Sequence record: SRR20825010_6182
Strand: one strand, 5' to 3'
Length of the DNA: 20,000 nucleotides
The notes beneath the pieces were generated by a model that saw only the letters and a program-made list of their open reading frames with translations, ran no database searches and was not told where the DNA came from. Both the position numbers and the translations under genes were made by a program. Shown piece after piece: positions 1-19,240 of the stretch (position 1 is its first letter; each line of letters opens with the position of its first letter).

Positions 1-1
1 C

Positions 2-163
2 GCTAGAATCTATTTTAACCTGCAAAACTTTTTCATAATCACTGATTATCATGGTTATGATCCCGAAGTAAGTTCCTTTGGCGGTCAGTTTACCGAGGGT
101 ATTGAGTTAAATGGTTACCCGAAAGCATTAACCATGAATATGGGAATTAACATAACCTTATAA
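2..163 (+). CDS. SusC/RagA-family TonB-dependent receptor, C-terminal fragment (5' end outside window)
   Basis: Frame from base 2 reads ARIYFNLQNFFIITDYHGYDPEVSSFGGQFTEGIELNGYPKALTMNMGINITL*, with TAA at 161-163. The GYDPE...YP...GIN.L terminus is typical of SusC-like barrels, and a SusD-like gene starts 14 nt downstream. Confidence 0.92.
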   Translation, partial: ARIYFNLQNFFIITDYHGYDPEVSSFGGQFTEGIELNGYPKALTMNMGINITL

Positions 164-177
164 ATAATTTAAAAGTC

Positions 178-1650
178 ATGATAAAATATAAAATATTATT
201 AATTGTTTGTTGCCTATTTTTCTCTTGTGAAGATTTCTTGGACGAGGTCCCAAGATCTCAAAAAACAACTGTAGGAACATCATTAGTTGACGCTGAACAG
301 TCCGTCAATGGAATATATGCCTTTTTACGAGCACCCTATAATAAATCGGGATATGCAAAGATGGTATTCTCCATTTTAGAGGTTAGTACAGGGGCTATGA
401 AACCAGCTATTGGCACCCAAGATACTGATATGGAGGACGCCTATAAATTGATATATAGTTCAAGTAATTCCAGCGCATCATCATTCTGGAGTACATACTA
501 TTCTGGAATAGAGGCTGCAAATATTGCTATTGCTTCCATTCCGGCAATCACAGATACTGAATTGACGCCAGCAATTTCCAAGGCTTTATTGGGAGAAGCC
601 CATTTTTTAAGAGCATATTACTATTTTGAACTCGTTCAATTATTCGGAGATATCCCGCTAAATATTGTCCCTTCAACCTCATTGGAAGATGGAACCTTGC
701 CAAAATCAAGCGTACAGGAAGTTTACGAAACCGTAATACTTCCGGATTTACTATTTGCTGAAAGCGCTGGTTTGCCCAACACTTCTACTAGTGGGAGAGT
801 TACCAATGGTGCAGTGAAATCCTTGCTGGCCAAGGTATATTTAACCATGGCCGGAAACCCTCTAAATCAAACAGACAAATATGCACTTGCGCGGGACAAG
901 GCCTCTGAGGTAATTACCGCGGATTGGTATAATTTGTTCGAATCCGATGGTTCATTGACCTGGTTTGATAAATTAAACAATCCAGCTTTTGATAATACTG
1001 GTGAAAATATATTCATGGTGCAATATGAAGGAGGATCAATTGCATCTTCTATTTCTACATATTTCACCCCTTTGGGTGGCGAGGATATTACCAATCAGAG
1101 CTTACATTTTGGAGGTATGGAGCCAGAGGTTGATTATATCAATACTTATGATGGAGCAGATTTGAGAGGACAAAACCAAGGATTCTTTTTCAATGAGTTT
1201 GACGGAGTTACTTTTAATAATTCTGTATACAAATATTTTTATCAAGAATTTAGAAATTCAAATGGATTGTCCAGTAAAAATGTTCCATTGCTAAGATATG
1301 CGGACGTATTATTGACGTATGCGGAGGCCCAAAACGAGACGACTTCAGCTGATGCATCAGCTTATGATGCATTAAATTCAATCCGACTCAGAGCGGGTTT
1401 GGCTGAGGTCTCTGGTCTAAGTAAAGAAGCGTTTAGGGAAGAAGTTTGGAAACAACGTTTTTGGGAATTCCCAGCAGAAGCTGGGTTAATATGGTTTGAT
1501 CAAAGAAGGACGGGCAAGGTTTTTAATGGTGGCGGTTTTACGGATCTAGTGGGGAGCACTTTACCTAACGGCAGTACCTTAACCGCAGATAACCTGTATT
1601 TTCCAATACCTCAAAACGAAGTAGTTCTTAATCCAAATTTAGGGGATTAG
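178..1650 (+). CDS. RagB/SusD-family outer-membrane glycan-binding lipoprotein
   Basis: Lipoprotein signal (FFSC, Cys17) followed by EDFLD. SusD motifs GEAHFLRAYYYFELVQLFGDIP, LLAKVYL, LRYADVLLTYAEA, LNSIRLRAGL and C-terminal YFPIPQNEVVLNPNL. Confidence 0.96.
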   Translation: MIKYKILLIVCCLFFSCEDFLDEVPRSQKTTVGTSLVDAEQSVNGIYAFLRAPYNKSGYAKMVFSILEVSTGAMKPAIGTQDTDMEDAYKLIYSSSNSSASSFWSTYYSGIEAANIAIASIPAITDTELTPAISKALLGEAHFLRAYYYFELVQLFGDIPLNIVPSTSLEDGTLPKSSVQEVYETVILPDLLFAESAGLPNTSTSGRVTNGAVKSLLAKVYLTMAGNPLNQTDKYALARDKASEVITADWYNLFESDGSLTWFDKLNNPAFDNTGENIFMVQYEGGSIASSISTYFTPLGGEDITNQSLHFGGMEPEVDYINTYDGADLRGQNQGFFFNEFDGVTFNNSVYKYFYQEFRNSNGLSSKNVPLLRYADVLLTYAEAQNETTSADASAYDALNSIRLRAGLAEVSGLSKEAFREEVWKQRFWEFPAEAGLIWFDQRRTGKVFNGGGFTDLVGSTLPNGSTLTADNLYFPIPQNEVVLNPNLGD

Positions 1651-1680
1651 AGCCATTTTGTAGTTAACAGTTTTATTGTG

Positions 1681-1695
1681 AGTTAGTTGAGTTAG
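1681..1695 (+). repeat. AGTTAGTTGAGTTAG motif upstream of a hairpin (copy 1 of 2)
   Basis: 14/15 identical to 14054-14068, and in the same context: T-rich spacer, then a stem starting AAGGGTG. Confidence 0.6.
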
Positions 1696-1703
1696 TTTTA
1701 TAG

Positions 1704-1738
1704 AACAAGGGTGGTTATTACAACGGCCACCCTTGTTT
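1704..1738 (+). terminator. Stem-loop after susD (terminator, attenuator or mRNA-stabilising hairpin)
   Basis: AACAAGGGTGG (1704-1714) pairs perfectly with CCACCCTTGTT (1727-1737). The U-tract is weak. Confidence 0.7.
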
Positions 1739-1912
1739 GCTTAAATTACATAAAGGAATCACAGTGAATACCTTAGTGTTGTGGATATTTGAAAATAATC
1801 AAATAAGAAACTAAAGTTTAATATATTAAGAAGAAAGTCGAAAATTATTAAGGGTGTGAACGCATGTTTTTTGTGCGCTACCTGTTAGTCTAATTAAAAT
1901 CAATTATCGAAA

Positions 1913-4786: not shown

Positions 4787-4794
4787 TAATCATT

Positions 4795-5190
4795 ATGGGG
4801 CTTATTGAAAAGATTTCAAATGAAAAAGCAGGATTCCATCCTGTTGTGGTAAAGGATTGTTGGCAGGTGATCAAGGTGAATTATTCCCAGCAAAATGAAT
4901 TGGATAAAATAGATTCCCTTATCCGTAATGGAAATAATGCTCTGGCCCTGTGCTTATTAAAAGGTAGGGCGGTATTGCTCATTCAGAATTCGGAAAAAAA
5001 CGCAGTGTCATTAAAAGCTATAACCATGGTTAGGGGATCATCCTATGTTATCCCCGAAAATGTTGGCTATAATATAGCAATGGAAAAGGGTTGTCAACTA
5101 TTTGCTGTGGAAAGTCCCTATAACCGTACTGAAAATGTGCGAAAAATACCTTTGACCAATGCGGAATTGGAGGTTATAAAAAAAATGTAA
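4795..5190 (+). CDS. Hypothetical cupin-like protein; degenerate paralog of 7472..7891
   Basis: Aligns with 7472..7891 (GFHPVVVKDCWQV..NY vs GYHPFIIKDGWQL..NY; YVIPENVGYNIAME vs YNIPKGVWHNIAME). Starts 8 nt after the GH38 stop. Confidence 0.75.
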   Translation: MGLIEKISNEKAGFHPVVVKDCWQVIKVNYSQQNELDKIDSLIRNGNNALALCLLKGRAVLLIQNSEKNAVSLKAITMVRGSSYVIPENVGYNIAMEKGCQLFAVESPYNRTENVRKIPLTNAELEVIKKM

Positions 5191-5212
5191 ATAAAGAACT
5201 TAAAAATTAAGA

Positions 5213-5917
5213 ATGGAAACAATTGCACCCTTGTGGAAAAATGATGACGAGCTATTTAAAATAGCCAAAGAAGAACTATTCGTTGCCCTAGTAGGAGATA
5301 TTTTGGATACCTTAGGTTACCAGCATCAATTTTTGCCGCCCAATATTAAACCACTAAACCCTGATTTTGTGCTAATTGGGAGGGCAATGCCCGTATTGGA
5401 AGCAGATGTATTTGAGGAATCAGCGCAAAATACTAACAATCCGTTGATGAAAAAGCCCTTTGGAATCATGTTCGAAGCCTTGGACGACCTTAAAAAAAAT
5501 GAGGTGTATATCTGTACGGGTTCATCACCAAGGTATGCCCTTTGGGGAGGCTTAATGAGTACCAGGGCAATGAAACTTATGGCTGCTGGAGCAGTAATGG
5601 ATGGCTACTCTAGGGATACCAACGAAGTACTTAATTTAAATTTTCCTACATTTTCTTTTGGTGGTTATGCTCAAGATCAGGGACCGCGAGGCAAGGTGAT
5701 AGATTACCGTGTGCCCATTGAAATTAAGGGGACAAGGATAAATCCAGGGGACATAATTTATGGTGACAGGGATGGGGTGTTGATTGTGCCAAAAGAAGTG
5801 GAAACCAAAGCATTTATGGGCGCTATTGAAAAAGCCAGAGGTGAGCAATTGGTTAAAAAGGCCTTGGAAAACGGAATGAGCACCGTTGATGCTTTTAATA
5901 AATTTGGAATTATGTAG
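5213..5917 (+). CDS. RraA/HMG-aldolase-family protein (putative class II pyruvate aldolase)
   Basis: Motifs VGDILD, IGRA, ALWGGLM, DGYSRD and INPGDIIYGDRDGVLIVP. Confidence 0.88.
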   Translation: METIAPLWKNDDELFKIAKEELFVALVGDILDTLGYQHQFLPPNIKPLNPDFVLIGRAMPVLEADVFEESAQNTNNPLMKKPFGIMFEALDDLKKNEVYICTGSSPRYALWGGLMSTRAMKLMAAGAVMDGYSRDTNEVLNLNFPTFSFGGYAQDQGPRGKVIDYRVPIEIKGTRINPGDIIYGDRDGVLIVPKEVETKAFMGAIEKARGEQLVKKALENGMSTVDAFNKFGIM

Positions 5918-5956
5918 CCGTGCCAAGATAGGGATGCATTAATAGAAAAATAATTT

Positions 5957-7414
5957 ATGAAAACTAAAAAATCCAACTATTTGTTGGGAATAAGCTTCGT
6001 CTCAACCATTGGAGGTTTTCTCTTTGGTTACGATACCGCAATTATATCGGGATGCAATACTTTTTTGGAACAGCATTTTAATTTGTCCGCTGCCGAGCTT
6101 GGTTGGTTGGTGTCGTCGGCATTGTTGGGAACCATTTTAGGTTGTGTAGTTGCAGGGTCAATAACAGACAGATTAGGACGAAAAAAAGCTTTGATCATAG
6201 CGGCAATTTGCTTGACTATTTCGGCATTTGGCTCTATGTTGCCCCCACAGTTCATGGGTGATCTGGATCAAGCTTATTGGCTTACTGCCAACGAAAAACA
6301 AGCATATACATTTTTAATATTGGTCCGTATTGTTGGTGGGATAGGTGTGGGTGTCACCTCAGTAGTGGCTCCTATTTACATATCGGAACTTTCCTTGCCC
6401 CAAAACAGGGGTAGAATGGTGTCCTTATATCAATTATCCATAACCTTGGGCATTCTTTTGGCTTTTTTAGTAGACTGGTTGGTCTTGACCAATGCAGGAA
6501 ATGCCGCAGGAGTAATTTCCAATGAACCTTCTGGGTTTTGGCAGTGGCTTTTTGTGGATGAAATTTGGAGAGGCATGTTTGGAACGGAAATACCTATTGC
6601 CTTGTTGTTCTTGATTTTATTATTCCTAGTGCCAGAAACACCAAGATGGCTTATTTCAAAACAGCGATATAACGAGGCCGAAAAAATTATGGTAAAAATC
6701 AATGGAAAAGAGTACGCCCAAAAGCAAATGGCTGAAATAAAAGAGGTGGTTAAATTAGAAAGCGGGGGAATAAGTGAATTATTAAAGCCTTTTTTAAGAG
6801 TTCCGTTGTTAATAGGTGTATTACTTCCCATGTTTTCCCATTTGAGCGGGATAGCAGCCATTATGTATTTTGCTCCGAATATTATTAACGAATCCATACA
6901 GAGTGTGGAGAGCTCCTTTTTGGGGGCTGTATTGGTAGGTGTGGTCAATAGTGCGTTTACATTCGTCGCGATTATGAATATTGAAAAATTTGGACGAAGA
7001 AAGCTGTTACTTGTTGGAGTTGTTGGGGCGTGTATTTCCCTAACGGGCGTGGGGATTTTGTTTGCATTAGGATCCCAATACGTAATTATTCCTTTATTGA
7101 TGTATGTGGCTAGTTTCGCGTTTTCGTTCGGACCCATCGTTTGGGTGATTATCAGTGAAATTTTCCCTACACGCATACGTGGGTTGGCAGTTTCCATAGG
7201 TAGCTTCGCTTTAATGGTTACCGGGTTTTTTATCACCTTGACCAATCCTATATTAATAGAAGAAATTATGCCTTCGGGTACCTTCTTTGTTTATGCGGCT
7301 TTAACCTTACCGGCTATTTGGTTTATTTGGAAATATGTACCCGAAACAAAAGGAAAGACCTTAGAGGAAATTGAAATGTATTGGCGACAGGACAAGAGCA
7401 ATAATAGAATATAA
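5957..7414 (+). CDS. Sugar porter family MFS transporter (XylE/AraE-like H+ symporter)
   Basis: Motifs GGFLFGYDTAIISG, DRLGRKK, PIYISE...RGRMVSLYQ, PETPRWL, EKFGRRKLL, SEIFPTRIRG and PETKGKTLEEIE, with multiple hydrophobic segments. Confidence 0.96.
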   Translation: MKTKKSNYLLGISFVSTIGGFLFGYDTAIISGCNTFLEQHFNLSAAELGWLVSSALLGTILGCVVAGSITDRLGRKKALIIAAICLTISAFGSMLPPQFMGDLDQAYWLTANEKQAYTFLILVRIVGGIGVGVTSVVAPIYISELSLPQNRGRMVSLYQLSITLGILLAFLVDWLVLTNAGNAAGVISNEPSGFWQWLFVDEIWRGMFGTEIPIALLFLILLFLVPETPRWLISKQRYNEAEKIMVKINGKEYAQKQMAEIKEVVKLESGGISELLKPFLRVPLLIGVLLPMFSHLSGIAAIMYFAPNIINESIQSVESSFLGAVLVGVVNSAFTFVAIMNIEKFGRRKLLLVGVVGACISLTGVGILFALGSQYVIIPLLMYVASFAFSFGPIVWVIISEIFPTRIRGLAVSIGSFALMVTGFFITLTNPILIEEIMPSGTFFVYAALTLPAIWFIWKYVPETKGKTLEEIEMYWRQDKSNNRI

Positions 7415-7471
7415 ATTAAAGACCTACGATTTTCTAAAAGAGGTCGTGTTGGGTTGTAGGTATTATAACAC

Positions 7472-7891
7472 ATGATTAAAGAATACAAGACAAAAGAAAA
7501 AGGATATCATCCATTTATTATAAAGGATGGGTGGCAATTGGCAAAATTGAATTATACGGAAGAGCAGCATATAGACAAGATCATCCAATTGGATGTACAC
7601 TTGGAAACAGATGAAGTTTTTGTTGCCATTGCTGGGAAGGCGGTGCTAATAGCTGCCGAAATAGTCGATAAAGTACCGAAGTTTGAATTGGAACCAATGA
7701 AAATTAACCAAATCTATAATATCCCGAAAGGAGTCTGGCACAACATAGCCATGGAGGAAGGAAGCGAAGTCTTAATCGCAGAAAAATCAAATACCCATAT
7801 TTCAGATTTTGAACATTTTGCCCTTAATGATCTTCAGAAAAAGGAATTGGGAATTATGGTCAAGGGGGAATTGGAATCGCTAAAAATCTAA
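7472..7891 (+). CDS. Cupin-fold protein with intact putative metal site (ureidoglycolate-lyase-like motif pattern)
   Basis: DVHLETDEVF (H43, D47/E48) and YNIPKGVWHN (H90) match the two cupin motifs. Confidence 0.75.
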   Translation: MIKEYKTKEKGYHPFIIKDGWQLAKLNYTEEQHIDKIIQLDVHLETDEVFVAIAGKAVLIAAEIVDKVPKFELEPMKINQIYNIPKGVWHNIAMEEGSEVLIAEKSNTHISDFEHFALNDLQKKELGIMVKGELESLKI

Positions 7892-7912
7892 TTGATTAGA
7901 TAAGAATAAAAG

Positions 7913-8713
7913 ATGAAAGAAATAGATCTAAAAGGGAAAAAGGTTTTGGTAACTGGAGGAAGCAATGGGATCGGAGCAGAAATTTGTAAGCAATTTGCTA
8001 GCTGTGGTGCGGATGTTTTTATCAATTATTATAAGAACAAGGAAAATGCAGAAATTCTAGCCAGTGAAATACGTGAAGCCCATGGGGTAAAAGTAAGCTG
8101 TTATGGGGCGGATGTTTCCAATGGTGCTGAGGTAGAAAAATTATTCCAACAAATGGACGTGGACATGGGCTCTATTGATGTTTTGGTTAATAATGCAGGT
8201 TGTGAGACCGTAGAACATGTTTTAGATATGGAAGAAAGCGAATGGGATAGGGTCCTTAACGTTAATTTGAAAGGCCCTTTCCTCTGTTCACAACAAGCTG
8301 CCAGGAGAATGGAAAACATGGGTGGTGGGGTAATTATCAACATCTCTTCCATTCATGATACCGTACCAAGAAAAGGGTTAATACATTACTGTTCTGCCAA
8401 AGCTGGACTTAAAATGTTTTCTAAATGTCTGTCTTTGGAACTAGCGGACAAAGGGGTTAGGGTAGTCTCCGTTGCACCGGGTGCAATTGAAACCAATATG
8501 AACAGGGAGGAGATAAAGAAATTTGGTAAGGACAAGTTTGAACAGTGGATTCCGCAGGGGCGTATAGGAGAGGTATCGGACGTAGCAAATACCGTTGTTT
8601 TTATGGCCAGCGATTTGGCTAATTATATCAATGGAGCGGATATTTATATTGACGGGGCATATATGAACCATACTATACAATATGATCCCAGACCTAAAAG
8701 AGAAAACAAGTAA
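7913..8713 (+). CDS. SDR-family oxidoreductase, glucose-1-dehydrogenase-like
   Basis: TGGSNGIG Rossmann motif, VNNAG, NISSIH, catalytic YCSAK, VAPGAIET and IPQGRIG. Confidence 0.92.
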   Translation: MKEIDLKGKKVLVTGGSNGIGAEICKQFASCGADVFINYYKNKENAEILASEIREAHGVKVSCYGADVSNGAEVEKLFQQMDVDMGSIDVLVNNAGCETVEHVLDMEESEWDRVLNVNLKGPFLCSQQAARRMENMGGGVIINISSIHDTVPRKGLIHYCSAKAGLKMFSKCLSLELADKGVRVVSVAPGAIETNMNREEIKKFGKDKFEQWIPQGRIGEVSDVANTVVFMASDLANYINGADIYIDGAYMNHTIQYDPRPKRENK

Positions 8714-8728
8714 CCCAATAATTATATC

Positions 8729-9874: not shown

Positions 9875-9875
9875 A

Positions 9876-10643
9876 ATGGATAGTAAGTACAAAAATATAA
9901 ATCTAAATATAGACAACAAGGTTGCTGTACTAAAGTTTAACAGGCCAGACCAGCTAAATGCCATGAACAGGCAAATGATGGATGAAATTATTGATGGTAT
10001 TGTAACTATCAATAATAATGAGGATGTTAAAGTGGCCGTTATCACTGGGAGGGGACGTGCTTTTATGGCTGGTGCGGACATTAAGGAGTATGGAAGTCAA
10101 ACCGCAGAGCAGTTTAGATCGTTTCAAGAAAGGGGCATAGCCTTGTATGAGGCCATTGAAAATGCTCCCAAGCCGTGGATAGCGGCAGTGAACGGATTTG
10201 CATTGGGAGGCGGTTTTGAAATTGCGCTTGCCTGTGATTTGATTTTGGCCAGTGAAAACGCCAAGATGGGGCTGCCAGAAGTATTTTTAAGTTTGATTCC
10301 CGGGGGAGGGGGTACCCAACGACTTATTCAAAAGATAGGCGTAAACCGTGTAAGGGAAATGTTATTTTTGGGAGGGCAATATTCATCCGAACAACTTCAC
10401 GCATGGGGAATCGTAAACCAGATTGTGCCTGACGGGGAATTTGATGAAACCATATGGCTATATGCGGAGAAACTAAGCCGTAGATCACCTAGTGCCATCA
10501 AACAACTGAAAAAATTGGTTCAATTAAGTCTTACATCCTTGTCTTTTGATCAAAAAATACAGGAGGAAGCCAAGACCGTAACCAAACTTTTTTACAGCCC
10601 TGAGGCAAAAAAAGCTATACAAGACTTTATTGAAAAAACATGA
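9876..10643 (+). CDS. Enoyl-CoA hydratase/isomerase (crotonase family)
   Basis: FNRPDQLNA, AFMAGADI and GFALGGGFEIALACD oxyanion motifs, plus GLPEV..LIPGGGGTQRL. Both catalytic glutamates are present. Confidence 0.95.
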   Translation: MDSKYKNINLNIDNKVAVLKFNRPDQLNAMNRQMMDEIIDGIVTINNNEDVKVAVITGRGRAFMAGADIKEYGSQTAEQFRSFQERGIALYEAIENAPKPWIAAVNGFALGGGFEIALACDLILASENAKMGLPEVFLSLIPGGGGTQRLIQKIGVNRVREMLFLGGQYSSEQLHAWGIVNQIVPDGEFDETIWLYAEKLSRRSPSAIKQLKKLVQLSLTSLSFDQKIQEEAKTVTKLFYSPEAKKAIQDFIEKT

Positions 10644-11695
10644 AAGCTGCACTTTTGATTTTATTTATAGGAAGTTATACGGAATATCCGATACCTGGTT
10701 TTGGAGGTATAGGCCATGGAATATATACCGTTCAATTGAATACCGAAACCGGTGAGTTGACAACTTTACATACCATGATGGCACGTAACCCCAGTTATTT
10801 GGTGGTTAGTGATGACAATCAGTTTTTGTACTGCGTTAACGAATTGGACGAAAGCGAAAACCCTAAAGTAGGGGCTTATAAAATCAATGCTGATTATTCG
10901 TTGCAATTTTTGAACGAACAACCCATAGCCGGGGGGTATCCATGCCATATCAAAACCTTTGGCAATAATGTATTGGTGGCCTGTTATGCAACAGGGAATA
11001 TTCATCAGTTTCCAGTTGAAGCCTCAGGGAAATTAGGCCCCGCGGTACAACAATATAGCCATGTCGGAAGTAGCGTTAATAGCGACCGTCAAGAAGCGCC
11101 TCATGCACACCAGATTGCCGTACATCCCAATGGCAGGGATGTTTATGTATGTGACCTAGGAATAGATATTATCAAAGCCTACCATTTTAAAGGAAAGAAC
11201 TTGGTGCCAAATGATATAAAGGATTGTAAAATATCAAAAGGAAGTGGCCCACGTCATATGGTTTTTGATGCCGCCGGAAATTTGGGATATGTAAACAATG
11301 AGTTGACAGGTACCGTTTCCGTTTTGAAACGTAAAGAAGGCTCTTTTGATGAAGAAGAAATCTATTCGGCCTTGCCCAATGATTTTACGGGGGTGCCAAG
11401 TGGATCGGCCATACGTATCCACCCTAATGGTCAATTCCTATACGTCGCCAATAGGAAATTGGAGGCAATAAGCATTTTCAGAATATATAAGGACAAACTT
11501 GAACCAATAGAATATCAGTATACCAAGGGTGAGGAATTACGGGAATTTAACATTACCCCGGATGGAAATTGGTTAATTGCTTGCCATCAGAACTCCCATG
11601 ACACAGTGGTATACCAAATAAAAAGTGACGGAAGATTACAGGAACGTTATCGCACTAAGGAAATATTGTCCCCGGTCTGCGTTGTTTTTAATTAA
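10640..11695 (+). CDS. Lactonase, 7-bladed beta-propeller (6-phosphogluconolactonase/Pgl family)
   Basis: Motifs FIGSYT, NPSYL, PCHI, ACYATG, RQEAPHAH, DLGID, GSGPRH, NELTGTV and YVANR. ATGA overlap with the upstream gene. Confidence 0.93.
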   Translation: MKAALLILFIGSYTEYPIPGFGGIGHGIYTVQLNTETGELTTLHTMMARNPSYLVVSDDNQFLYCVNELDESENPKVGAYKINADYSLQFLNEQPIAGGYPCHIKTFGNNVLVACYATGNIHQFPVEASGKLGPAVQQYSHVGSSVNSDRQEAPHAHQIAVHPNGRDVYVCDLGIDIIKAYHFKGKNLVPNDIKDCKISKGSGPRHMVFDAAGNLGYVNNELTGTVSVLKRKEGSFDEEEIYSALPNDFTGVPSGSAIRIHPNGQFLYVANRKLEAISIFRIYKDKLEPIEYQYTKGEELREFNITPDGNWLIACHQNSHDTVVYQIKSDGRLQERYRTKEILSPVCVVFN

Positions 11696-11747
11696 TAGGT
11701 TTAACTAAACCGATTTAGAAAAATATAAATACTTATAAATAAGGATA

Positions 11748-12920
11748 ATGAGCAATAACAGTAATCAAAATGTAGGTCCATTGAAAGGATTGGTCGTGGC
11801 CGATTTTACACAATTGGCTCAAGGACCTTGGGCAACGCAGATGTTGGGAGATATGGGGGCGGATATCATTAAGATAGAACCGGAAAAAGGAGATTGGATG
11901 CGGCACTATGCATATGGGAACCTTTACCCCAACGGTGAAAGCATTTCATTCGTTAGTTTCAATAGAAATAAACGCAGTATTGCTTTAAACTTAAAAGATC
12001 CAGAAGGGGTAAAAATAGCTATGTCAATTATTTCTAAGGCTGATATTCTTGTTGAGAATTTTCGCCCCGGAATTATGGACAGGTTGGGTCTTGGGTATGA
12101 GGAAATTAAAAAAACAAACCCCAAATTGGTGTATTGTTCAAGTTCTGGTTATGGATCTTCGGGGCCATATTTACATAGGGCAGGGCAAGATTTGTTGGCA
12201 CAATCCATAGGTGGCGGTTCGGCTCTAAATGGGAAAAAGGGAGATATGCCTGTGGTTACTGCCGTTGGACAGGCCGATTTATTGACCAGTTTATTTATAA
12301 ATCAGGCAATAATGGCTGCCCTTTACTCTAGGTCAAAAACGGGAAAAGGCCAAAAGATCGAGGCGAACTTGCTGAACTCTGTGGTAGGCTTCCATATACA
12401 GGAAATTACGGCATACCTGCACAAAGGGGCAAACCCGGAACGCAGTGAAAGTGGTATCCCGAATCCCTGGTTGGGAGCACCATATGGGCTCTACAATACC
12501 AGTGATGGATATATCGCCATCGGTATGAACTCCGTACAAAAATTGGCTCAGGTCATTGGCTTGGAAAAATATGATTCAGAAGTTTATGCTTCCAATAACA
12601 TAATAGAAAGTAGGGATGAAATTCGATTTGACTTCGATGCTGTTTTTCAATCTAAAGCGACCGAGGAATGGTTGGCCCTGCTGCTGGAACATGATATTTG
12701 GTGCTCCCAAGTCAATAGCTTCGATGAAATGGTCAATGACCCTCAGATAAAACATAATGAAATGATCATAGAAATTGAGCACCCAACAATTGGCAAGGTT
12801 AAGACTACCGGTTTCCCCGTATGGTTCAGTGACACCCCACAAAAAATATACAAGTCGGCACCCTTGCTAAATGAACATGCCGATGAAATACTCAGGGAAT
12901 TCTGCGATTTTAACGAATAA
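11748..12920 (+). CDS. CaiB/BaiF family III CoA-transferase
   Basis: Motifs PLKGLVVADF, GPWATQMLGDMGADIIKIEP..GD..R, NRNKRSIALNLK, ENFRPG..DRLGLGY, GQAD (catalytic Asp position) and APLLNEH. Confidence 0.95.
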   Translation: MSNNSNQNVGPLKGLVVADFTQLAQGPWATQMLGDMGADIIKIEPEKGDWMRHYAYGNLYPNGESISFVSFNRNKRSIALNLKDPEGVKIAMSIISKADILVENFRPGIMDRLGLGYEEIKKTNPKLVYCSSSGYGSSGPYLHRAGQDLLAQSIGGGSALNGKKGDMPVVTAVGQADLLTSLFINQAIMAALYSRSKTGKGQKIEANLLNSVVGFHIQEITAYLHKGANPERSESGIPNPWLGAPYGLYNTSDGYIAIGMNSVQKLAQVIGLEKYDSEVYASNNIIESRDEIRFDFDAVFQSKATEEWLALLLEHDIWCSQVNSFDEMVNDPQIKHNEMIIEIEHPTIGKVKTTGFPVWFSDTPQKIYKSAPLLNEHADEILREFCDFNE

Positions 12921-12955
12921 GGAATAAATACATAAACAACTAAAGTGACATAGCT

Positions 12956-14017
12956 ATGAAATTAGGATTTGGTCTGTACAGACATATGTTGAACACCGAG
13001 CACTATAATTTTGCCAAACAATGTGGCGCCACACATCTAGTAATTCATTTGGTGGACTACTTTGGCCATAACAAGGACAATGCAGACCAGCCTATTGGGG
13101 GGAAGGAAGGTTGGGGACATGCAGGGGACCCAAATAAAATTTGGTCCTTGGAGGAGCTTTTGGTCATAAAGAAGGAAATAAATGATCATGGATTGGAACT
13201 TGAGGCCATTGAGAATTTTGATCCGGCACATTGGCATGATATTTTGTTGGATGGCCCGAAGAAAGAAACTCAAATAGAAAATCTAAAAGAACTAATTCGC
13301 AATGTCGGTAAAGCAGGTATCCCAGTATTCGGGTATAATTTTTCTTTAGCGGGGGTATCTTCAAGAGAAATTGGTCCTTATGCTAGAGGTGGGGCTTTAT
13401 CTGTGGGAATGTCAAAAGGAGATGAAACGCCAATTCCAAATGGAATGGTGTGGAATATGGTTTATGATGAAAATGCTCCTGAAGGTGTTTTGCCTAAAAT
13501 AGAGCACGACGAACTATGGCAACGGTTACAATATTTTTTAAATGAATTGATTCCTGTTGCTGAAGAAGCCGGAGTGAAATTGGCCGCGCATCCGGATGAT
13601 CCACCAATGCCATACATTAGAAATACACCAAGATTGGTATATCAACCGGATATGTATCAAAAATTGATAGATATGAAACCGAGTCCTTCAAATAATTTAG
13701 AATTCTGTTTGGGTTCTATTGCCGAAATGACCGAAGGAGATGTATATGAGGCCACCGATACCTATAGTAAACAGGGAAAAATCAGCTATATCCATTTTAG
13801 AAATGTGGTTGGAAAAGTTCCAACATATAAAGAAGTCTTTGTAGACGAAGGGGATATAGATATGTTCAAAATTCTTAGAATTCTTAAGAAGAACAATTTT
13901 GATGGGGTGCTGATTCCCGACCATACCCCCCAGATGAGTTGTGACGGTTCATGGTATGCCGGAATGGCTTATGCTATGGGATATATGAAAGCAGGATTAA
14001 AAGCAATAAATGAATAA
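12956..14017 (+). CDS. uxuA: Mannonate dehydratase (UxuA family)
   Basis: Motifs GLELEAIE, YNF, LWQRLQYFL..LIPVAEEAGVKLAAHPDDPP, FCLGS, IHFRNV, FVDEGDIDM and PDHTP. Family assignment is strong; the exact substrate is not shown. Confidence 0.88.
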   Translation: MKLGFGLYRHMLNTEHYNFAKQCGATHLVIHLVDYFGHNKDNADQPIGGKEGWGHAGDPNKIWSLEELLVIKKEINDHGLELEAIENFDPAHWHDILLDGPKKETQIENLKELIRNVGKAGIPVFGYNFSLAGVSSREIGPYARGGALSVGMSKGDETPIPNGMVWNMVYDENAPEGVLPKIEHDELWQRLQYFLNELIPVAEEAGVKLAAHPDDPPMPYIRNTPRLVYQPDMYQKLIDMKPSPSNNLEFCLGSIAEMTEGDVYEATDTYSKQGKISYIHFRNVVGKVPTYKEVFVDEGDIDMFKILRILKKNNFDGVLIPDHTPQMSCDGSWYAGMAYAMGYMKAGLKAINE

Positions 14018-14053
14018 GTAAAGCATTGCCAATATGGGTCAATGGATAATGAT

Positions 14054-14068
14054 AGTTAGTTCAGTTAG
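14054..14068 (+). repeat. AGTTAGTTCAGTTAG motif upstream of a hairpin (copy 2 of 2)
   Basis: 14/15 identical to 1681-1695, followed by a T9 run and a stem starting AAGGGTG. Confidence 0.6.
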
Positions 14069-14082
14069 ATTTTTTTTTAGAT

Positions 14083-14118
14083 GAAGGGTGCACCATGAAT
14101 TACGGGTGCACTCTTTTC
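14083..14118 (+). terminator. Stem-loop after uxuA (probable intrinsic terminator or processing hairpin)
   Basis: GAAGGGTGCACC (14083-14094) pairs with GGTGCACTCTTT (14105-14116) using G-U wobbles. Confidence 0.7.
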
Positions 14119-14173
14119 AAGAAAAGGATTTTCCATTACCGGATTTGACCACTTTTATATAATAAAGACAATT

Positions 14174-16876
14174 ATGACAAGGAAAATTTATCAGATTGTA
14201 ATAATAATTTCAATTCTTCTTATTAACCAATTAAGAGGGCAAAAAAAATTTAATAGTGATCGGGAAACCTATGATTTGCTGAAATCATTGTCCAATTCCA
14301 AGCTGGGAAGTGGAAATGTGCTTTTATTTACAACCACACACGAAGATATTGCATGGTTGAACGAGCCCGAAATTTGTAAGATTGATAGGGACAAATTATG
14401 GTTAACACCATATATGGATCGATTGAAGTCAGAATCCGACTTTAAAATGGACATAGAGCAGTCTTCTATAGTCATGGAGTATTTACACAGACACCCAGAG
14501 GAGAAGGAAAACTTCATCAAGTTTGTTAAAGAAGGACGGATCTGTATAGGGGGTGCATATGTACAAACTTATGAAGGCATGTATTCCGGAGAATCCTTGG
14601 CTAGGCAATTTTATTTCGGTAAAAAATGGTTGCAAGATAATCTAGATGGGTATCAGACCAACGTGTACTTCAATAACGATGTGCCGTCCAGGACTATGCA
14701 AATGCCACAATTGGCCAGTAAGGCAGGAGTCAATAATTTTGTTTTTGCCAGACACATAAAAGGATTGTTCTATTGGGAATCTCCAGACGGATCTAAGGTG
14801 CGATGTTACAGTCCAGGAAACCACTATATGGAATTCTACAATCTATTGGGGCAAAAGGATTCGGTTGCAATAAAAACCATGGCGAAAGAAGCGGTAGACT
14901 GGTATACTATTTATAATAATACATCCTTAAGTAATACGGTAATGCCCGCTATGTTGAATTATGAGTTTATTTGGCCCCAAGAACCAGTGAAGAATTCCGT
15001 TCCCTTTATGAATAAATGGAATTCTATAACACAAATCGAGTTAGATGGCAAAAATCGTATTAATGTAAATCTACCTAAGTTCAGGTATGCTACAGCAGAC
15101 GAGTTTTTTGAAAGCGTAGTGGCAACTACATCAATAGGAAAAACTATAAAGGGTGAACGTCCAAATACTTGGGTCTATATACATGGAGCTGGACACCAAA
15201 AGGCGCTAAGAGCAAGTCGGGAAGGCGATATTTTAATGACCAAGGCAGAAAAGTTTGCTACGGCCAATGCACTTATTGATGGTTCGTTCAACAAATATCC
15301 GGGACGGGAACTTTACGATGCTTGGGAGTCTAAGATTTATCCAGACCATGGCTGGGGAGGTAAGGGAGGCGATGTTACCGACAACCTGTTTCTACAAAAG
15401 TTTCTATTCGCCAAATCCGTGGCTGAAAAGATATTGGATGAATCTCTAGAAGCCATTGCGGGAAAGATTTCGTTCAAAAAAGAAAATGGCTCACCAATTG
15501 TTGTTTTTAATAGTTTAAGTTGGGAGCGTTCAGATCCAGTTAATTTTAAAATTAATTTTCAATCCAAGGATGCAAAGAACTTTCAGTTGTTAACTGAAGA
15601 AGGCGGAAATGTACCAGTACAATTATCGGAATTGACTTATTATCCTAATGGATTCATACAATCCGCCAAGGTGAATTTTGTGGCTAATAATCTTCCTTCT
15701 ATTGGGTATAGAACATTCTACTTAAAATCATCCGATGAGGTAGAAAAGAACATGGTAGCTAATAATACTGGCACCTTTGAAAATGCCTATTACAAAGTAA
15801 AGTTTGGTGACGGAGGTTTAGAGAGTATTTATGATAAAGATTTGCAAAAGGAACTGATTGACGCCAAAAGCTTTAAGGCCGGTGAAATCTTTGCGATGAA
15901 TTCAGAAGGTAATGGTGCTGGAGAATTTGCTGAAGTTCAGCAACCAGATGTCAGCTTTTTTGACAGACTTGCCAGTAGTACAACCAAATGGCAGTTGGAG
16001 GATGATGGCCCGATATATACTAGTTATAAAATGAGGCAGAAGATGAAGGAAGCTGTTGTTGAATTGAAAATTACGTTTTATAATTCAACAAAGAAAATAG
16101 ATTTCGATGTTGATCTATTGAACTGGGACGGTATTATTTACAGGGAATTTCGAATGGCCTTGCCATTGAATATGCAGAATGGGGAAGTTACTTATGAAGT
16201 TCCATTTGGGGCAGTCACTGTTGGTAAGGATGAATTAAGAGGTACTGGAGGGGATTTTTATAATACACCGGTACGTGAAATTCATCCAAGAGAAATTGAA
16301 AACTGGATATCTGCAAGTAATTCAGAATTTGGGGTAACATTGAGTTCTAGTGTTGTAACCGCTGATTGGATAAATCCAATAGATTCTTTAAGTACACGGA
16401 CTATTTTACAACCCATACTTTTGGCTTCGCGTAAAAGCTGTCATTGGGAGGGTAATAATTATCATCAAACTGGCGATCATCATTTCAATTTTAGCATAAC
16501 CTCACATTCTAGTGGATGGAAAAATGGGCAAAGATTTGGAAAACAATCAAATGAAAAACCAAATGTTGTGGTTCATCCGCACTCTTATAGTCAAACTTCA
16601 TTACCTGATAAATTGAGTTTTTTCAGTGTAGATAAGGAGAATGTGGTTATTTCTACTGTGAAGAAGGCAGAAGATGATCAAGATGTAATTATAAGGGCGT
16701 ACGAAACAGATGGGGATGATGTTGATGCAGCTATTTCCATGTTCAAACCTATCACAAAGGCGTATTTGACCACCTTGATAGAACAGCCTATTTGGGAAAT
16801 TAATAATGATAAACAAAAAATTGAACTGAACCTAGGTCACAATTCCATTGAAACGATAAAAATTGAGCAATATTAA
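14174..16876 (+). CDS. Glycoside hydrolase family 38-like protein, probably secreted, paralog B
   Basis: Hydrophobic N-terminus. Motifs THEDIAW, SGESLARQFYFG, NNDVPS, FYWESPDGSKV, IYPDHGWGG, VVFNSLSWER and ISTVKKAED..IIRAYE. Collinear with 1913..4786. Confidence 0.85.
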   Translation: MTRKIYQIVIIISILLINQLRGQKKFNSDRETYDLLKSLSNSKLGSGNVLLFTTTHEDIAWLNEPEICKIDRDKLWLTPYMDRLKSESDFKMDIEQSSIVMEYLHRHPEEKENFIKFVKEGRICIGGAYVQTYEGMYSGESLARQFYFGKKWLQDNLDGYQTNVYFNNDVPSRTMQMPQLASKAGVNNFVFARHIKGLFYWESPDGSKVRCYSPGNHYMEFYNLLGQKDSVAIKTMAKEAVDWYTIYNNTSLSNTVMPAMLNYEFIWPQEPVKNSVPFMNKWNSITQIELDGKNRINVNLPKFRYATADEFFESVVATTSIGKTIKGERPNTWVYIHGAGHQKALRASREGDILMTKAEKFATANALIDGSFNKYPGRELYDAWESKIYPDHGWGGKGGDVTDNLFLQKFLFAKSVAEKILDESLEAIAGKISFKKENGSPIVVFNSLSWERSDPVNFKINFQSKDAKNFQLLTEEGGNVPVQLSELTYYPNGFIQSAKVNFVANNLPSIGYRTFYLKSSDEVEKNMVANNTGTFENAYYKVKFGDGGLESIYDKDLQKELIDAKSFKAGEIFAMNSEGNGAGEFAEVQQPDVSFFDRLASSTTKWQLEDDGPIYTSYKMRQKMKEAVVELKITFYNSTKKIDFDVDLLNWDGIIYREFRMALPLNMQNGEVTYEVPFGAVTVGKDELRGTGGDFYNTPVREIHPREIENWISASNSEFGVTLSSSVVTADWINPIDSLSTRTILQPILLASRKSCHWEGNNYHQTGDHHFNFSITSHSSGWKNGQRFGKQSNEKPNVVVHPHSYSQTSLPDKLSFFSVDKENVVISTVKKAEDDQDVIIRAYETDGDDVDAAISMFKPITKAYLTTLIEQPIWEINNDKQKIELNLGHNSIETIKIEQY

Positions 16877-16885
16877 GTCTATAAA

Positions 16886-18277
16886 ATGAAAAGAAGAAAA
16901 TTCATCACAGTTACAAGTACTTCTGCTATTGCAGTTACTGGAGTTTCACCTTTATTAACGTGGGCTTGTAGTGAACCTAAATCAAGTGCTACTTTGCTGA
17001 AAGAACAGGCTTTGTTAGCTTTTAAAAGATTTGAAGAAGTTTGGGATTTTCAAGATTTTTGGAAGAGGGGAAATACCTTCGACGCCTGTTTGGTTTTTGT
17101 AGAAGCCCTGCAACAACGTTGGCCGAAGGATAAGGAAGTTGAAGCAATACAAGAAAAAGTGGGGGAAATGTTGAAGGAAAACCTAACTTTTTTTAAAAGC
17201 TACGACCCTGGAACACTTTGGGCAGATGATTTTGGTTGGTGGGGTCTACTGGCACTCAATGCGCGCAAGCACCTTCTGCGAATAGGGGACATGGAACTAG
17301 CCGATAAATACCTAAAATTGTCAACCGATCTATGTTGGGAATACAAAAGGAAAACTGCCTATGACCATACGGATGCTGCCAGACCTGTTTTACATGGTTG
17401 TAGAAATGGAGATGCAAATGGGGATAGTTTGGGCGTTAAGAACACTGTTACCAATGTTTTGTTGTTCTTGCTTTCCTCACGAATTTATCGCCTGTCATTG
17501 ACCGAAAATATAAATGACAACGACAAATATTTAGATATGGCCTACCGCCAGTGGGTATGGTTCAATGAGTGGTTCAAATTAACTGAATACCGATATTTAA
17601 AAGAACTATCTACTTCGGGCGCTTTAGTTCAAGAACGACCCATGGCATTTTTTGAAGGGTCTACGTATCAAGAAAAAACACACCCCACTTGGGCCGAGGG
17701 TTGGGTGTGGACAGGCGACCAAGGAATGTTGGTTGCCGCTTTGACCGATATGTTAGCGATTAAAAATGAGTTGTCTACCTATCTTACAACAAATAATATA
17801 GATTCCAATTTTGACTTAAAAGCCTATGAATCTAGATTAAAGGATATCATAAAGTCAATAGGCAAAGGTGTTAAAAATGCCATGGTCGCTAATGTGGACG
17901 GCATTATCCGTGAGGCACCATGCCTTCCTAGCTTTGGACCCGAACATGGAAGGGATTACCTCGCCGGCCGTGGTATTATGATGCGATATTTAGGCAGCGA
18001 TGAAGCAAGAGCTCTAATAAATGTTGACCTGACTGGAAATATTGAAAAAACTTTAGCTGCCATTTGGAGTACACGTGATTTAGCAACCAATCAGTTTCAA
18101 CCCGAATTTACGAGCCTACAAAATGATAAGCTTTATGTGGAGCAGTTCCGAAAACTTTGGGGCTTTGCCGATGATGTGTATCAATGGGATATAGAATCGA
18201 TGAAAGAGAAAAATAAAAATGGAGTGTGCCAGTCCATAGGGCTCGACCTCATTGGTGCTGCTATTAAAGGAATGTGA
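16886..18277 (+). CDS. GH76-like (alpha/alpha)6 glycoside hydrolase, Tat-exported lipoprotein
   Basis: KRRKFI twin-arginine motif and lipobox TWAC (Cys28). [10 protein letters not shown] resembles the GH76 catalytic DD motif, KNTVTN resembles KNAIxN, and WTGDQG resembles WTYNQG. Confidence 0.7.
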
Positions 18278-18298
18278 AATTAAAGGAAATAGGTAAGA

Positions 18299-19240
18299 AT
18301 GAAAATTAATTATAACCTCTTTTTGGCAGCGATGGTTTTATCGCTAATAGTCTCCTCAGCCACAGTATATGCACAAAAAAAAGAAACGAATTTCGAAGGA
18401 CGTTGGGATATGACAATCGATCACAATGGCAATTATGCTTCATCATGGTTGGAGATAAAGCCTTGGGGGTATACAAAAGTGGGGACATTTTTACATACAG
18501 GAGGATATCCTAGACCACTTTCAGAAATAAATATAAAGGACGATTACTTTTATTTCTCGGTCCCATGGGAATCAGAGAAAAGAAAACTTAAATTGGAAGG
18601 TAGGATCAATGGCGATAGTTTACAAGGTGAAATTCACTACCCCGATGGTAAAAAGTACCATTGGTCCGCGGTTAGGGCCCCAGAGCTTCCATATGTTAAA
18701 AACCCCGCTTGGGGTACGCCTATAGTACTATTCAATGGTGAAAACTTGGAGGGTTGGCACACTAGGGGAAATAATCAGTGGGTTGCAGAATCTGGAATCT
18801 TAAAGAGTCCCAAAGCTGGGTCTAACCTAATTAGTGATATGGAGTTTATGGATTTTAAACTGCATTTGGAATTTAGGTATCCAGAACATGGAAACAGTGG
18901 GGTATATCTTCGAGGAAGATATGAAGTCCAGATTTTCGACAGTAAGGGAATGAGGCCGTCCAGTGATCAATTCGGAAGTATTTTTGGTTTTTTGGAGCCC
19001 AATGAAATGGTTGCTAAAGGTCCAGGTGAATGGCAAACCCTGGATATTACTTTGGTTGGCAGGAGGGTTACTATTGAGTCCAATGGATCTATAATAATCA
19101 ATGACCAGCGAATACCAGCTATTACAGGTGGGGCATTGGATAGCAAAGAAGATGAGCCCGGTCCATTTATGCTTCAAGGAGATCATCATCCTATCGAATT
19201 CAGAAATATAATTGTCACACCCATGGTTACAGGTATGTAA
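18299..19240 (+). CDS. DUF1080 (3-keto-glycoside hydrolase/hydratase-like) protein, secreted
   Basis: Signal peptide and an N-terminal beta domain (GRWDMT). DUF1080 motifs LFNGENLEGW, DFKLHLEF, GNSGVYLRGRYEVQI, GEWQT and LQGDH..IEFRNI. Confidence 0.9.
   Translation: MKINYNLFLAAMVLSLIVSSATVYAQKKETNFEGRWDMTIDHNGNYASSWLEIKPWGYTKVGTFLHTGGYPRPLSEINIKDDYFYFSVPWESEKRKLKLEGRINGDSLQGEIHYPDGKKYHWSAVRAPELPYVKNPAWGTPIVLFNGENLEGWHTRGNNQWVAESGILKSPKAGSNLISDMEFMDFKLHLEFRYPEHGNSGVYLRGRYEVQIFDSKGMRPSSDQFGSIFGFLEPNEMVAKGPGEWQTLDITLVGRRVTIESNGSIIINDQRIPAITGGALDSKEDEPGPFMLQGDHHPIEFRNIIVTPMVTGM

What the first reader, a model, noticed from the sequence alone, without database searches (positions are those of the whole stretch)
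1..19240. SusCD locus coupling alpha-mannosidase-like enzymes to an unnamed CoA-linked sugar-acid catabolic cassette
Seen: one co-oriented, tightly spaced gene run. Exported proteins (SusC/D, 2x GH38-like, GH76-like, DUF1080) flank a block with an MFS importer, SDR, lactonase, UxuA-type dehydratase, RraA-type aldolase, two cupins, a family III CoA-transferase, a crotonase and a leaderless SBP. Established: Bacteroidota alpha-mannan PULs normally rely on GH76/GH92/GH38 and route mannose through a kinase and mannose-6-phosphate isomerase, and CoA-thioester chemistry is not part of that scheme. No GH92, kinase or isomerase is in this window. Inference: a complete uptake-to-central-metabolism pathway for an unusual or modified glycoside, possibly undescribed.
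Basis: partly seen in the sequence, partly recalled or inferred. Interest (0 to 1): 0.82.

Follow-up and report, generated by a model that had tools for sequence, protein, structure and literature searches.

The report
Candidate O-methyl-mannose breakdown locus
A conserved gene cluster in marine Bacteroidota probably lets them eat methyl-capped mannose from algal or animal glycans by stripping the methyl group off the sugar acid as methanol, partly through a coenzyme-A step not described for sugars; this is a prediction from gene context, not yet tested.

Summary
The gene run is real and conserved. In 33 full-length related loci the SBP-fold gene and crotonase occur in 32, a GH38-like gene in 31, SDR 31, RraA 30, UxuA-like 28. 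It has two layers. The core (odd GH38, sugar porter, cupin, SDR, lactonase, UxuA-like, RraA) also exists without the CoA genes (L175, L177). The SBP/crotonase/CoA-transferase triad is a plug-in used across phyla. Plain mannose fits poorly: related genomes already hold phosphomannose isomerase and canonical UxuA, and the GH38s have lost the His-Asp pair that grips mannose O3/O4. Close orthologues of the UxuA-like gene sit beside a second glucuronate isomerase; 4-O-methyl-glucuronate and 3-O-methyl-mannose would both give 3-O-methyl-mannonate. Sister triads sit beside GH139 (2-O-methyl-fucosidase family) and the G6Me-demethylating P450. Best reading (about 0.5): O-methyl-mannose catabolism, releasing methanol by elimination; triad probably for the 2-O-methyl isomer. 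No enzyme step is shown, and controls cannot separate methyl sugars from other sugars of the same glycans. The scan met a related operon before on other DNA (e1-5256093), read as oxidative mannose breakdown with the CoA genes unexplained. Ten literature searches found no description.

The parts
2..163 (+). 3' end of SusC-like TonB-dependent transporter
   Evidence: translation equals the C-terminus of the 1059-aa TonB-dependent transporter in A. troitsensis
178..1650 (+). SusD-like lipoprotein
   Evidence: Pfam PF14322/PF07980
1913..4786 (+). GH38-fold glycosidase A, signal peptide; Zn ligands H130, D132, D243, H456 kept; D-H-G-W-G-G in place of canonical H-D; proposed O-methyl-mannosidase
4795..5190 (+). 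cupin paralogue A, lacks the His/Glu motif of cupin B; optional
5213..5917 (+). RraA/HMG-aldolase family protein; proposed non-phosphorylated 2-keto-3-deoxy-hexonate aldolase
   Evidence: PF03737; 30 of 33 loci
5957..7414 (+). Sugar-porter MFS importer (XylE-like)
   Evidence: 26 of 33 loci
7472..7891 (+). cupin B with H43-E48 and H90; proposed mutarotase (inferred by position: sister loci carry mutarotases or aldose epimerases)
   Evidence: 30 of 33 loci
7913..8713 (+). SDR, glucose-1-dehydrogenase-like; proposed aldose 1-dehydrogenase
   Evidence: NF005559 above cut-off; PDB hits FabG and Bacillus-type glucose dehydrogenases
8729..9874 (+). leaderless MalE-fold protein; triad member; proposed enol-ether hydrolase or cytoplasmic binder
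9876..10643 (+). crotonase with both catalytic Glu motifs (GGGFE 111-115, LPEV 133-136); triad member
   Evidence: 32 of 33 loci
10640..11695 (+). 7-bladed beta-propeller lactonase
   Evidence: PF10282; 27 of 33 loci
11748..12920 (+). family III CoA-transferase (GQADL motif at 174); triad member
   Evidence: PF02515; below all NCBIfam equivalog cut-offs
12956..14017 (+). divergent UxuA-family enzyme; proposed 3-O-methyl-D-mannonate methanol-lyase
14174..16876 (+). GH38-fold glycosidase B, same D-H-G-W-G-G loop; the acid/base loop reads NYEFIW instead of ND
16886..18277 (+). divergent GH76-like lipoprotein (ADDFGW motif); optional
   Evidence: PF03663 34.5 bits; 8 of 33 loci
18299..19240 (+). 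DUF1080 3-keto-glycoside hydrolase family; not part of the conserved unit
   Evidence: 0 of 48 loci
19416..19441 (+). terminator-like hairpin closing the run (consensus match only)
   Evidence: sites overall no more than in shuffles (20 vs 17.4)

Best explanation
A LacI-controlled utilisation locus for O-methylated D-mannose, such as the 3-O-methyl caps of algal and invertebrate oligomannose N-glycans and mannans. SusCD imports oligosaccharide; periplasmic GH38-fold enzymes with a rebuilt O3/O4 pocket release the methyl-mannose; the sugar porter imports it. Core route (all steps inferred): cupin anomerase, SDR oxidation to the lactone, lactonase, then the UxuA-like enzyme eliminates the C3 substituent of 3-O-methyl-D-mannonate as methanol, giving 2-keto-3-deoxy-gluconate (KDG); the RraA-family aldolase cleaves KDG to pyruvate and glyceraldehyde (or KdgK/Eda where present). 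Plug-in route (inferred, weaker): for an isomer the metal dehydratase cannot take, most likely 2-O-methyl-mannonate, the CoA-transferase makes the thioester, the crotonase removes the 3-OH to give a 2-methoxy-enoyl-CoA, CoA passes to the next substrate, and the leaderless MalE-fold protein hydrolyses the enol ether to KDG and methanol (or only binds an intermediate). Shown here: gene identities, co-conservation, the two-layer structure, active-site motif changes and genomic associations. Not shown: any substrate or reaction.
For: (1) Ordinary routes already exist: 5 of 5 related genomes hold a type I phosphomannose isomerase family match; 10 of 10 hold a canonical UxuA at 390-448 bits besides the divergent one. 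(2) This GH38 subfamily goes with the oxidative cassette: 6 of 6 carriers among 201 Flavobacteriaceae genomes also carry the UxuA-like gene, against 5 of 195 others. (3) Zn ligands and nucleophile are invariant in 32 of 32 aligned members, but H456 is followed by Gly and the D-x-F motif reads D-V-P (43 of 49 GH38-like ORFs have DHGxG). In S. pyogenes GH38 the Asp after the Zn His (D352) contacts the mannose O4 and O3 equivalents (PMC2815779, passages). (4) Terminal 3-O-methyl and 3,6-di-O-methyl mannose cap Chlorella N-glycans and resist jack bean alpha-mannosidase (PMC6344472, passages). GH92 is in 15 and GH85 in 8 of 33 loci, GH125 and GH130 in a few. (5) 79%-identical UxuA-like orthologues, nested inside the cassette clade (quick tree, SH-aLRT 97), sit with a second glucuronate isomerase and a gluconate-5-dehydrogenase-like SDR in G013 and G180, which also keep a canonical uxaC-uxuA pair. 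Uronate C4 becomes mannonate C3, so 4-O-methyl-glucuronate gives 3-O-methyl-mannonate (established chemistry). (6) Sister triads: a GH139 gene lies between the two CoA-transferase genes in L084, directly upstream of the SBP gene in Rufibacter, and in L153. 7 of 8 GH139 genomes (query source left out) and 8 of 11 G6Me-type P450 genomes carry the SBP family, which is in 17 of 201; the P450 cluster is 8-13 kb from the SBP gene in three genomes. (7) In rhizobial and roseibial L-fucose loci the triad coexists with L-fuconate dehydratase, as it does here with UxuA-like. (8) Crotonase acts on (2S,3S) substrates such as 2-methyl-3-hydroxybutyryl-CoA, and D-mannonate is (2S,3S); MaoC replaces it in rhamnose/fucose loci, never both (52 ECH, 24 MaoC, 0 both of 88 loci). 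The stereochemistry is recalled, not tested.
Against: No biochemical, fitness or expression data. Controls weaken the methyl link: 4 of 5 agarase genomes and 6 of 11 GH78 genomes also carry the SBP family, so the association follows the polysaccharide (agar, RG-II), and any of its sugars could be the substrate; genomes are not independent and the GH139, GH78 and agarase queries came from SBP loci. The L084 GH139 is closer to 9HMB than to 9HYQ; one of the two solved GH139 enzymes released no 2-O-methylfucose (figure legend), and I did not establish which PDB id it is. Several Bacteroidota fucose-type loci have the triad with no other dehydratase (L141, L144, L159, L168), which fits a plain CoA-dependent dehydratase. 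The GH38 loop cannot be aligned without gaps; invariant D455 might replace the lost Asp. The uronate loci have no GH67 or GH115 hit; their 784-aa and 591-aa neighbours match nothing. Only 2 such loci were seen. The SBP gene also occurs without a family III CoA-transferase nearby (6 of 88 loci; also the second copy in L069). The agar-type triad uses a crotonase on a presumably L-galacto sugar, against a strict stereochemical rule. Phosphomannose isomerase may serve biosynthesis only. Only 1 of 48 window-type loci has the P450 within 10 kb.
Confidence: 0.5

Rival explanations
1. Non-phosphorylative oxidation of plain D-mannose (mannonolactone, mannonate, KDG, pyruvate + glyceraldehyde), parallel to the kinase/isomerase route; the triad is a CoA-dependent dehydratase for mannonate or another unmodified aldonate.
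Against: Canonical UxuA and PMI already present; two dehydrating systems for one acid would be redundant; GH38 pocket is altered; does not explain the duplicated uxaC loci or a third, SBP-fold component.
Confidence: 0.2
2. The sugar is a mannose homomorph blocked at C6 (D-rhamnose, 6-O-methyl- or 3,6-di-O-methyl-mannose, D-lyxose), which forces a non-phosphorylative route like the L-rhamnose Lra pathway; the triad handles its 2-O- or 3-O-methyl form or the three-carbon product.
For: A non-phosphorylative aldolase is in 30 of 33 loci although KdgK homologues exist in 5 of 5 genomes; the conserved Phe of the GH38 D-x-F motif is Pro; 6-O-methyl and 3,6-di-O-methyl mannose occur in algal N-glycans.
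Against: KdgK is in 6 and Eda in 5 of 33 loci, which need a free O6; the uronate-isomerase loci yield a hexonate with a free O6; no aldehyde dehydrogenase in the cassette.
Confidence: 0.15
3. The substituent is not methyl (sulfate, acyl, lactyl or aminoethylphosphonate on O2/O3 of mannose) and is eliminated by the same chemistry.
For: Elimination logic is the same; sulfatases lie near some loci; phosphonate-substituted mannose N-glycans exist (PMC12507850, passages).
Against: No sulfatase, esterase or phosphonate gene is part of the conserved unit; hydrolases normally remove such groups; importer is a neutral-sugar porter family.
Confidence: 0.08
4. Mannosylglycerate (digeneaside) catabolism, with the triad acting on the glycerate part.
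For: Only NCBIfam hit of both GH38s is mannosylglycerate hydrolase; an MGH1-like gene lies near some loci.
Against: Scores 82 and 128 bits against a cut-off of 1138; no glycerate kinase in the cassette; sister triads sit in fucose, rhamnose and agar loci unrelated to glycerate.
Confidence: 0.04

Closest known systems
Non-phosphorylative oxidative aldose pathways (L-rhamnose Lra, L-fucose of Xanthomonas/rhizobia, archaeal mannose oxidation; recalled except the fucose loci seen)
   Same: dehydrogenase, lactonase, dehydratase, aldolase in one operon with a transporter
   Different: UxuA-family rather than enolase/IlvD dehydratase, RraA-family aldolase, an extra CoA triad, embedded in a SusCD locus with GH38-fold enzymes
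Bacteroides alpha-mannan and high-mannose N-glycan PULs (GH76/GH92/GH38; PMC4978465 seen as search listing only)
   Same: SusCD, GH38, GH76-like, often GH92/GH85/GH125 nearby
   Different: GH38 lacks the H-D pair; an oxidative cytoplasmic route is attached; GH76 is weak and optional
P450 demethylation of 6-O-methyl-D-galactose in marine Flavobacteriaceae (PMC10033563, passages; PDB 6G5O)
   Same: proposed job: removing an O-methyl from an algal sugar; the cluster lies directly downstream in A. troitsensis
   Different: that route is oxidative, needs O2 and gives formaldehyde; the proposed one is an elimination on the sugar acid giving methanol
Hexuronate pathway UxaC-UxuB-UxuA-KdgK-Eda
   Same: UxuA fold with HPDDPP, C251, H280, PDH motifs kept; orthologues sit with a UxaC paralogue
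   Different: below the family cut-off; coexists with canonical UxuA; here fed by an aldose dehydrogenase
CaiB/CaiD carnitine-type CoA-transferase plus crotonase cycles (recalled)
   Same: family III CoA-transferase paired with a crotonase or MaoC to dehydrate a 3-hydroxy acid by CoA recycling
   Different: sugar-acid context and a third, leaderless MalE-fold protein; all named equivalogs fail their cut-offs

Membership tests
GH38 alpha-mannosidase | GH38 fold and domain order | tested here: met
   Pfam GH38N above cut-off; model pLDDT 86, best Foldseek hits all GH38, TM 0.6-0.7, 12-16% identity
GH38 alpha-mannosidase | Zn ligands H-x-D, nucleophile Asp, second His | tested here: met
   H130, D132, D243, H456 in 32 of 32; H456 equivalence rests on sequence position
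GH38 alpha-mannosidase | Asp directly after the second Zn His (binds O3/O4) and Phe of D-x-F | tested here: not met
   G457 and P245 in 32 of 32; canonical QFHD/HPHD; role
GH38 alpha-mannosidase | hydrolysis of alpha-mannosides | not testable with these tools
   needs assay
Mannosylglycerate hydrolase MngB | NCBIfam equivalog score | tested here: not met
   82 and 128 vs 1138 bits
D-mannonate dehydratase UxuA | NCBIfam cut-off | tested here: not met
   156 vs 191; 126 vs 199.6; Pfam family met
D-mannonate dehydratase UxuA | metal-site motifs | tested here: met
   HPDDPP 212, EFCLGS 249, HFRNV 280, PDH 321 align with 3BAN
ABC transporter solute-binding protein | MalE-type fold | tested here: met
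   pLDDT 96, TM 0.75-0.85 to sugar SBPs
ABC transporter solute-binding protein | export signal and cognate permease genes | tested here: not met
   no hydrophobic leader; no ABC permease in the window or among recurring neighbours of window-type loci
Enoyl-CoA hydratase (crotonase) | two catalytic Glu motifs | tested here: met
Family III CoA-transferase of known substrate (Frc, CaiB, SucCD-type, Mct) | equivalog cut-offs | tested here: not met
   best 245 vs 750 bits; Pfam PF02515 met
HMG/CHA aldolase LigK | equivalog cut-off | tested here: not met
   48 vs 304.5; RraA-like family met with GGLM, DGYSRD, GDRDGV motifs
Yeast alpha-mannan PUL | GH76 plus GH92 as conserved core | tested here: not met
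   GH76-like 8 of 33, GH92 15 of 33, none in the window

The most novel reading that the evidence does not exclude
The leaderless MalE-fold protein, CoA-transferase and crotonase/MaoC form a widespread, oxygen-independent sugar O-demethylation module: 2-O-methyl aldonates are CoA-activated, dehydrated to an enol ether and hydrolysed to a 2-keto-3-deoxy acid plus methanol by an enzyme evolved from a transport binding protein, while a UxuA subfamily eliminates methanol from 3-O-methyl-mannonate. Variants would serve 2-O-methyl-fucose (RG-II), methylated agar sugars and methyl-mannose in Bacteroidota, rhizobia, Vibrio and Streptomyces.
Probability: 0.3. Interest if true: 0.92.

Novelty: new variant of a known kind. 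Interest (0 to 1): 0.8.

Why it matters
O-methyl caps protect algal, fungal and invertebrate glycans from ordinary glycosidases. The only bacterial sugar demethylation I found described is the P450 route for 6-O-methyl-galactose. If right, this locus supplies a GH38 subfamily that removes methyl-mannose (useful for glycan analysis), a methanol-releasing route that could feed marine and rhizosphere methylotrophs, and a function for a large misannotated 'ABC binding protein' family (1406 hits) and for the unexplained CaiB/MaoC genes in rhizobial fucose loci. Each step can be tested with purified enzymes and synthetic methyl sugars.

Tried and rejected
No whole genome is held for the window, so genome context comes from A. 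palladensis and A. troitsensis (90-98% identical proteins). Search for SBP fusions among longer proteins: none, weak evidence. Complex prediction of CoA-transferase monomer with the SBP-fold protein: no verdict. Promoter and terminator scans at chance level. Literature searches without a description of this pathway: (0-9 hits, none on it); one search identified GH139. PMC5507952 passages were irrelevant; PMC2816705 was a wrong id; a paper on the Geobacillus glucuronate cluster was not held, so whether methanol elimination from 3-O-methyl-mannonate has been proposed for UxuA in older or subscription papers is open. No supplements were read. The 784-aa and 591-aa proteins of the uronate loci matched nothing in Pfam or PDB. 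The careful UxuA tree did not finish; the quick tree was used. DUF1080 as part of a 3-keto-glycoside route: rejected, not conserved. Five distant CoA-transferase loci (L048-L051, L053) were dropped from the 53 before counting.


Full report
Observation. The window holds one co-oriented run from the tail of a SusC-like gene (2-163) to a DUF1080 gene (18299-19240). The DNA is Arenibacter-like: the CoA-transferase is 98% identical to that of A. palladensis. No genome is held for the window; in A. troitsensis a whole susC and a LacI-family gene lie upstream.

Conservation. A scan of genome contigs with the CoA-transferase gave 53 loci; I kept 48 at 61-99% identity and dropped 5 distant ones. Of these, 33 hold more than 20.5 kb. 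In those 33: SBP-fold 32, crotonase 32, GH38-like 31, SDR 31, RraA 30, cupin B 30, UxuA-like 28, lactonase 27, MFS 26, GH92 15, GH76-like 8, GH85 8, KdgK 6, Eda 5, DUF1080 0 (the CoA-transferase is 33 by construction, and partial hits at locus edges count). Gene order varies between families.

Two layers. Searching 201 Flavobacteriaceae genomes with the UxuA-like protein found 11 carriers. Two of them (L175, L177) have GH38, RraA, MFS, cupin, SDR, lactonase, UxuA-like and GH76-like in the window's arrangement but no SBP, crotonase or CoA-transferase. Conversely the triad stands alone in a Saprospiraceae MAG (L005, L006) and, with only a TRAP transporter and IclR, on a Vibrio plasmid. The triad is therefore a plug-in. 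An earlier scan note on other DNA (e1-5256093) also called the CoA genes optional; I confirmed that part and saw its M24 gene in three loci.

Why not plain mannose. Five of five related genomes have a phosphomannose isomerase family match and KdgK homologues, and ten of ten have a canonical UxuA elsewhere. The window's UxuA-like protein keeps the metal motifs but fails the family cut-off. All six genomes with this GH38 subfamily carry the UxuA-like gene. The GH38s fold as GH38 and keep the Zn ligands and nucleophile, but have D-H-G-W-G-G where solved members have H-D, and Pro for the Phe of D-x-F. In S. pyogenes GH38 that Asp contacts the equivalents of mannose O4 and O3 (PMC2815779, passages). 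The loop differs in length, so D455 may compensate; I could not inspect this in 3D. Chlorella N-glycans end in 3-O-methyl and 3,6-di-O-methyl mannose that resist jack bean mannosidase (PMC6344472, passages); O-methyl mannose is reported for several microalgae, and 2-O-methyl-mannose for moulds (PMC12507850, passages and a reference title).

The uronate clue. In G013 and G180 a 79%-identical UxuA-like gene sits with a glucuronate isomerase and a gluconate-5-dehydrogenase-like SDR (below cut-off), with RraA (83%) in G013. Both genomes keep a separate canonical uxaC-uxuA pair. The two proteins nest inside the cassette clade in a quick tree of 68 rows. Because isomerisation and reduction turn uronate C4 into mannonate C3, the common 4-O-methyl-glucuronate gives 3-O-methyl-mannonate, the same acid that SDR and lactonase would make from 3-O-methyl-mannose. 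A UxuA-type elimination at C3 would then release methanol and give KDG. This is inference from two loci, and no known 4-O-methyl-glucuronidase family was detected there. 3-O-methyl-glucuronate with 4-O-methyl-mannose would fit equally in form but both are rarer (recalled).

The triad. The SBP-fold protein models as a MalE-type fold (pLDDT 96), has no leader, and keeps a set of polar and aromatic residues across phyla. Of 88 held loci with this family and at least 4 kb each side, 82 have a family III CoA-transferase within 9 kb, 52 a crotonase, 24 MaoC, none both (not independent: many were selected through the CoA-transferase and some repeat a genome). In 80 metagenome loci found through the SBP alone, 58 show a CoA-transferase, 34 MaoC and 11 a crotonase, many contigs being short. 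MaoC versions lie in L-fucose loci of Sinorhizobium, Labrenzia, Nitratireductor and Thalassospira, in two cases visibly beside L-fuconate dehydratase, and in Bacteroidota loci with RhaT, GH78, GH28, GH88, GH141 and DUF5703. DUF5703 is GH139: its PDB hits 9HMB and 9HYQ are the structures deposited by the GH139 2-O-methyl-fucosidase paper (abstract and passages). Among 201 genomes the SBP family is in 17; GH139 in 9, of which 8 have it; the G6Me-type P450 in 11, of which 8 have it; 14 of 17 have one or the other. Controls with an agarase (4 of 5 after removing the query's genome) and a GH78 (6 of 11) are also enriched, so the link is to agar and RG-II as such. Both carry 2-O-methyl sugars (RG-II; agar recalled), but other sugars are not excluded.

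Mechanism proposed. A 2-O-methyl aldonate cannot chelate the metal of an ordinary dehydratase through O2 and would give a stable enol ether. Thioester activation solves the first problem; a third protein would be needed for the second, which would explain why the SBP-fold gene travels with every variant. Crotonase stereochemistry, (2S,3S), matches D-mannonate, and MaoC matches 3R sugars such as L-rhamnonate and L-fuconate (recalled); the agar-type crotonase is a likely exception. The alternative, a CoA-dependent dehydratase for unmodified aldonates, is supported by fucose-type loci without another dehydratase.

Comparison and novelty. It works like a non-phosphorylative oxidative sugar pathway inside a SusCD locus. 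It is not a yeast-mannan PUL, MngB, canonical UxuA or an ABC binding protein by the tests listed. Ten full-text searches of the open library found no description of the cassette, of a CoA-transferase/MaoC step in sugar-acid catabolism, or of methanol elimination by a UxuA-type enzyme; subscription papers and supplements were not seen. I rate it a new variant of a known kind, with a 0.3 chance that the triad is a new type of sugar demethylation system. Confidence in O-methyl-mannose as substrate is about 0.5; in the exact division (3-O-methyl by UxuA-like, 2-O-methyl by the triad) about 0.3. Interest 0.8.

Noticed in passing
window 19482-19817 (-): ISL3-family transposase fragment after the locus (PF01610).
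   Followed up: no
L002 17038-20869; G020:C20:995388: AraC + G6Me-type P450 (best hit 6G5O) + ferredoxin + reductase + Zn-ADH + esterase directly downstream and co-oriented in A. troitsensis; 46 kb away in G020.
   Followed up: partly
L179 5031-10400; L180 9000-19192: Second glucuronate-isomerase loci with the UxuA-like gene, an Nramp-family transporter, and unclassified 591-aa and 784-aa secreted proteins; candidate 4-O-methyl-glucuronate route and possible new glycosidase families.
   Followed up: partly
L069/L070 (G001:C17:68000-104000): Second A. palladensis locus about 60 kb upstream: SBP paralogue (58%) with no CoA-transferase, two more UxuA-like genes, FAH-family hydrolase, APH kinase and enolase, suggesting a diketo-acid to glycerate exit.
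   Followed up: partly
L009, L010, L014, L018, L029, L034, L185: A second MFS (41%), SDR (34%) and CoA-transferase (45%) module follows the cassette, next to GH92: probably a further sugar variant.
   Followed up: no
   Followed up: partly
L107, L113, L115, L138, L150: A family I CoA-transferase (PF01144) also accompanies the SBP-fold gene.
   Followed up: no
L065, L066, L072, L074, L076, L078-L082, L084: Fucose/rhamnose-type Bacteroidota loci carry a second leaderless SBP (about 25% to rhizobial ABC binding proteins) and two CoA-transferase paralogues.
   Followed up: no
L071, L073, L074, L075, L077, L157, L090: Agar-type triad with an aldehyde dehydrogenase whose best PDB hit is 6J75 (recalled as 3,6-anhydro-L-galactose dehydrogenase); candidate 2-O-methyl-anhydrogalactose route.
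   Followed up: partly
L068; L078, L080, L081: MaoC-type triad beside four-carbon acid sugar kinase and PdxA genes, with an AMP-dependent ligase in Methylobacterium.
   Followed up: no
L067: Vibrio plasmid holds only TRAP transporter, IclR and the triad, suggesting the triad alone converts an imported acid to a common metabolite.
   Followed up: partly
L004, L008, L044, L069, L087, L182, L185: A 727-aa MGH1/GH63-like protein below Pfam cut-off recurs beside the cassette.
   Followed up: no
window 14174-16876, residues 261-270: GH38 B subgroup (5 of 32 aligned) has N-Y/F-E-x-x-W where the others have the acid/base Asp; acid/base may be Glu.
   Followed up: no
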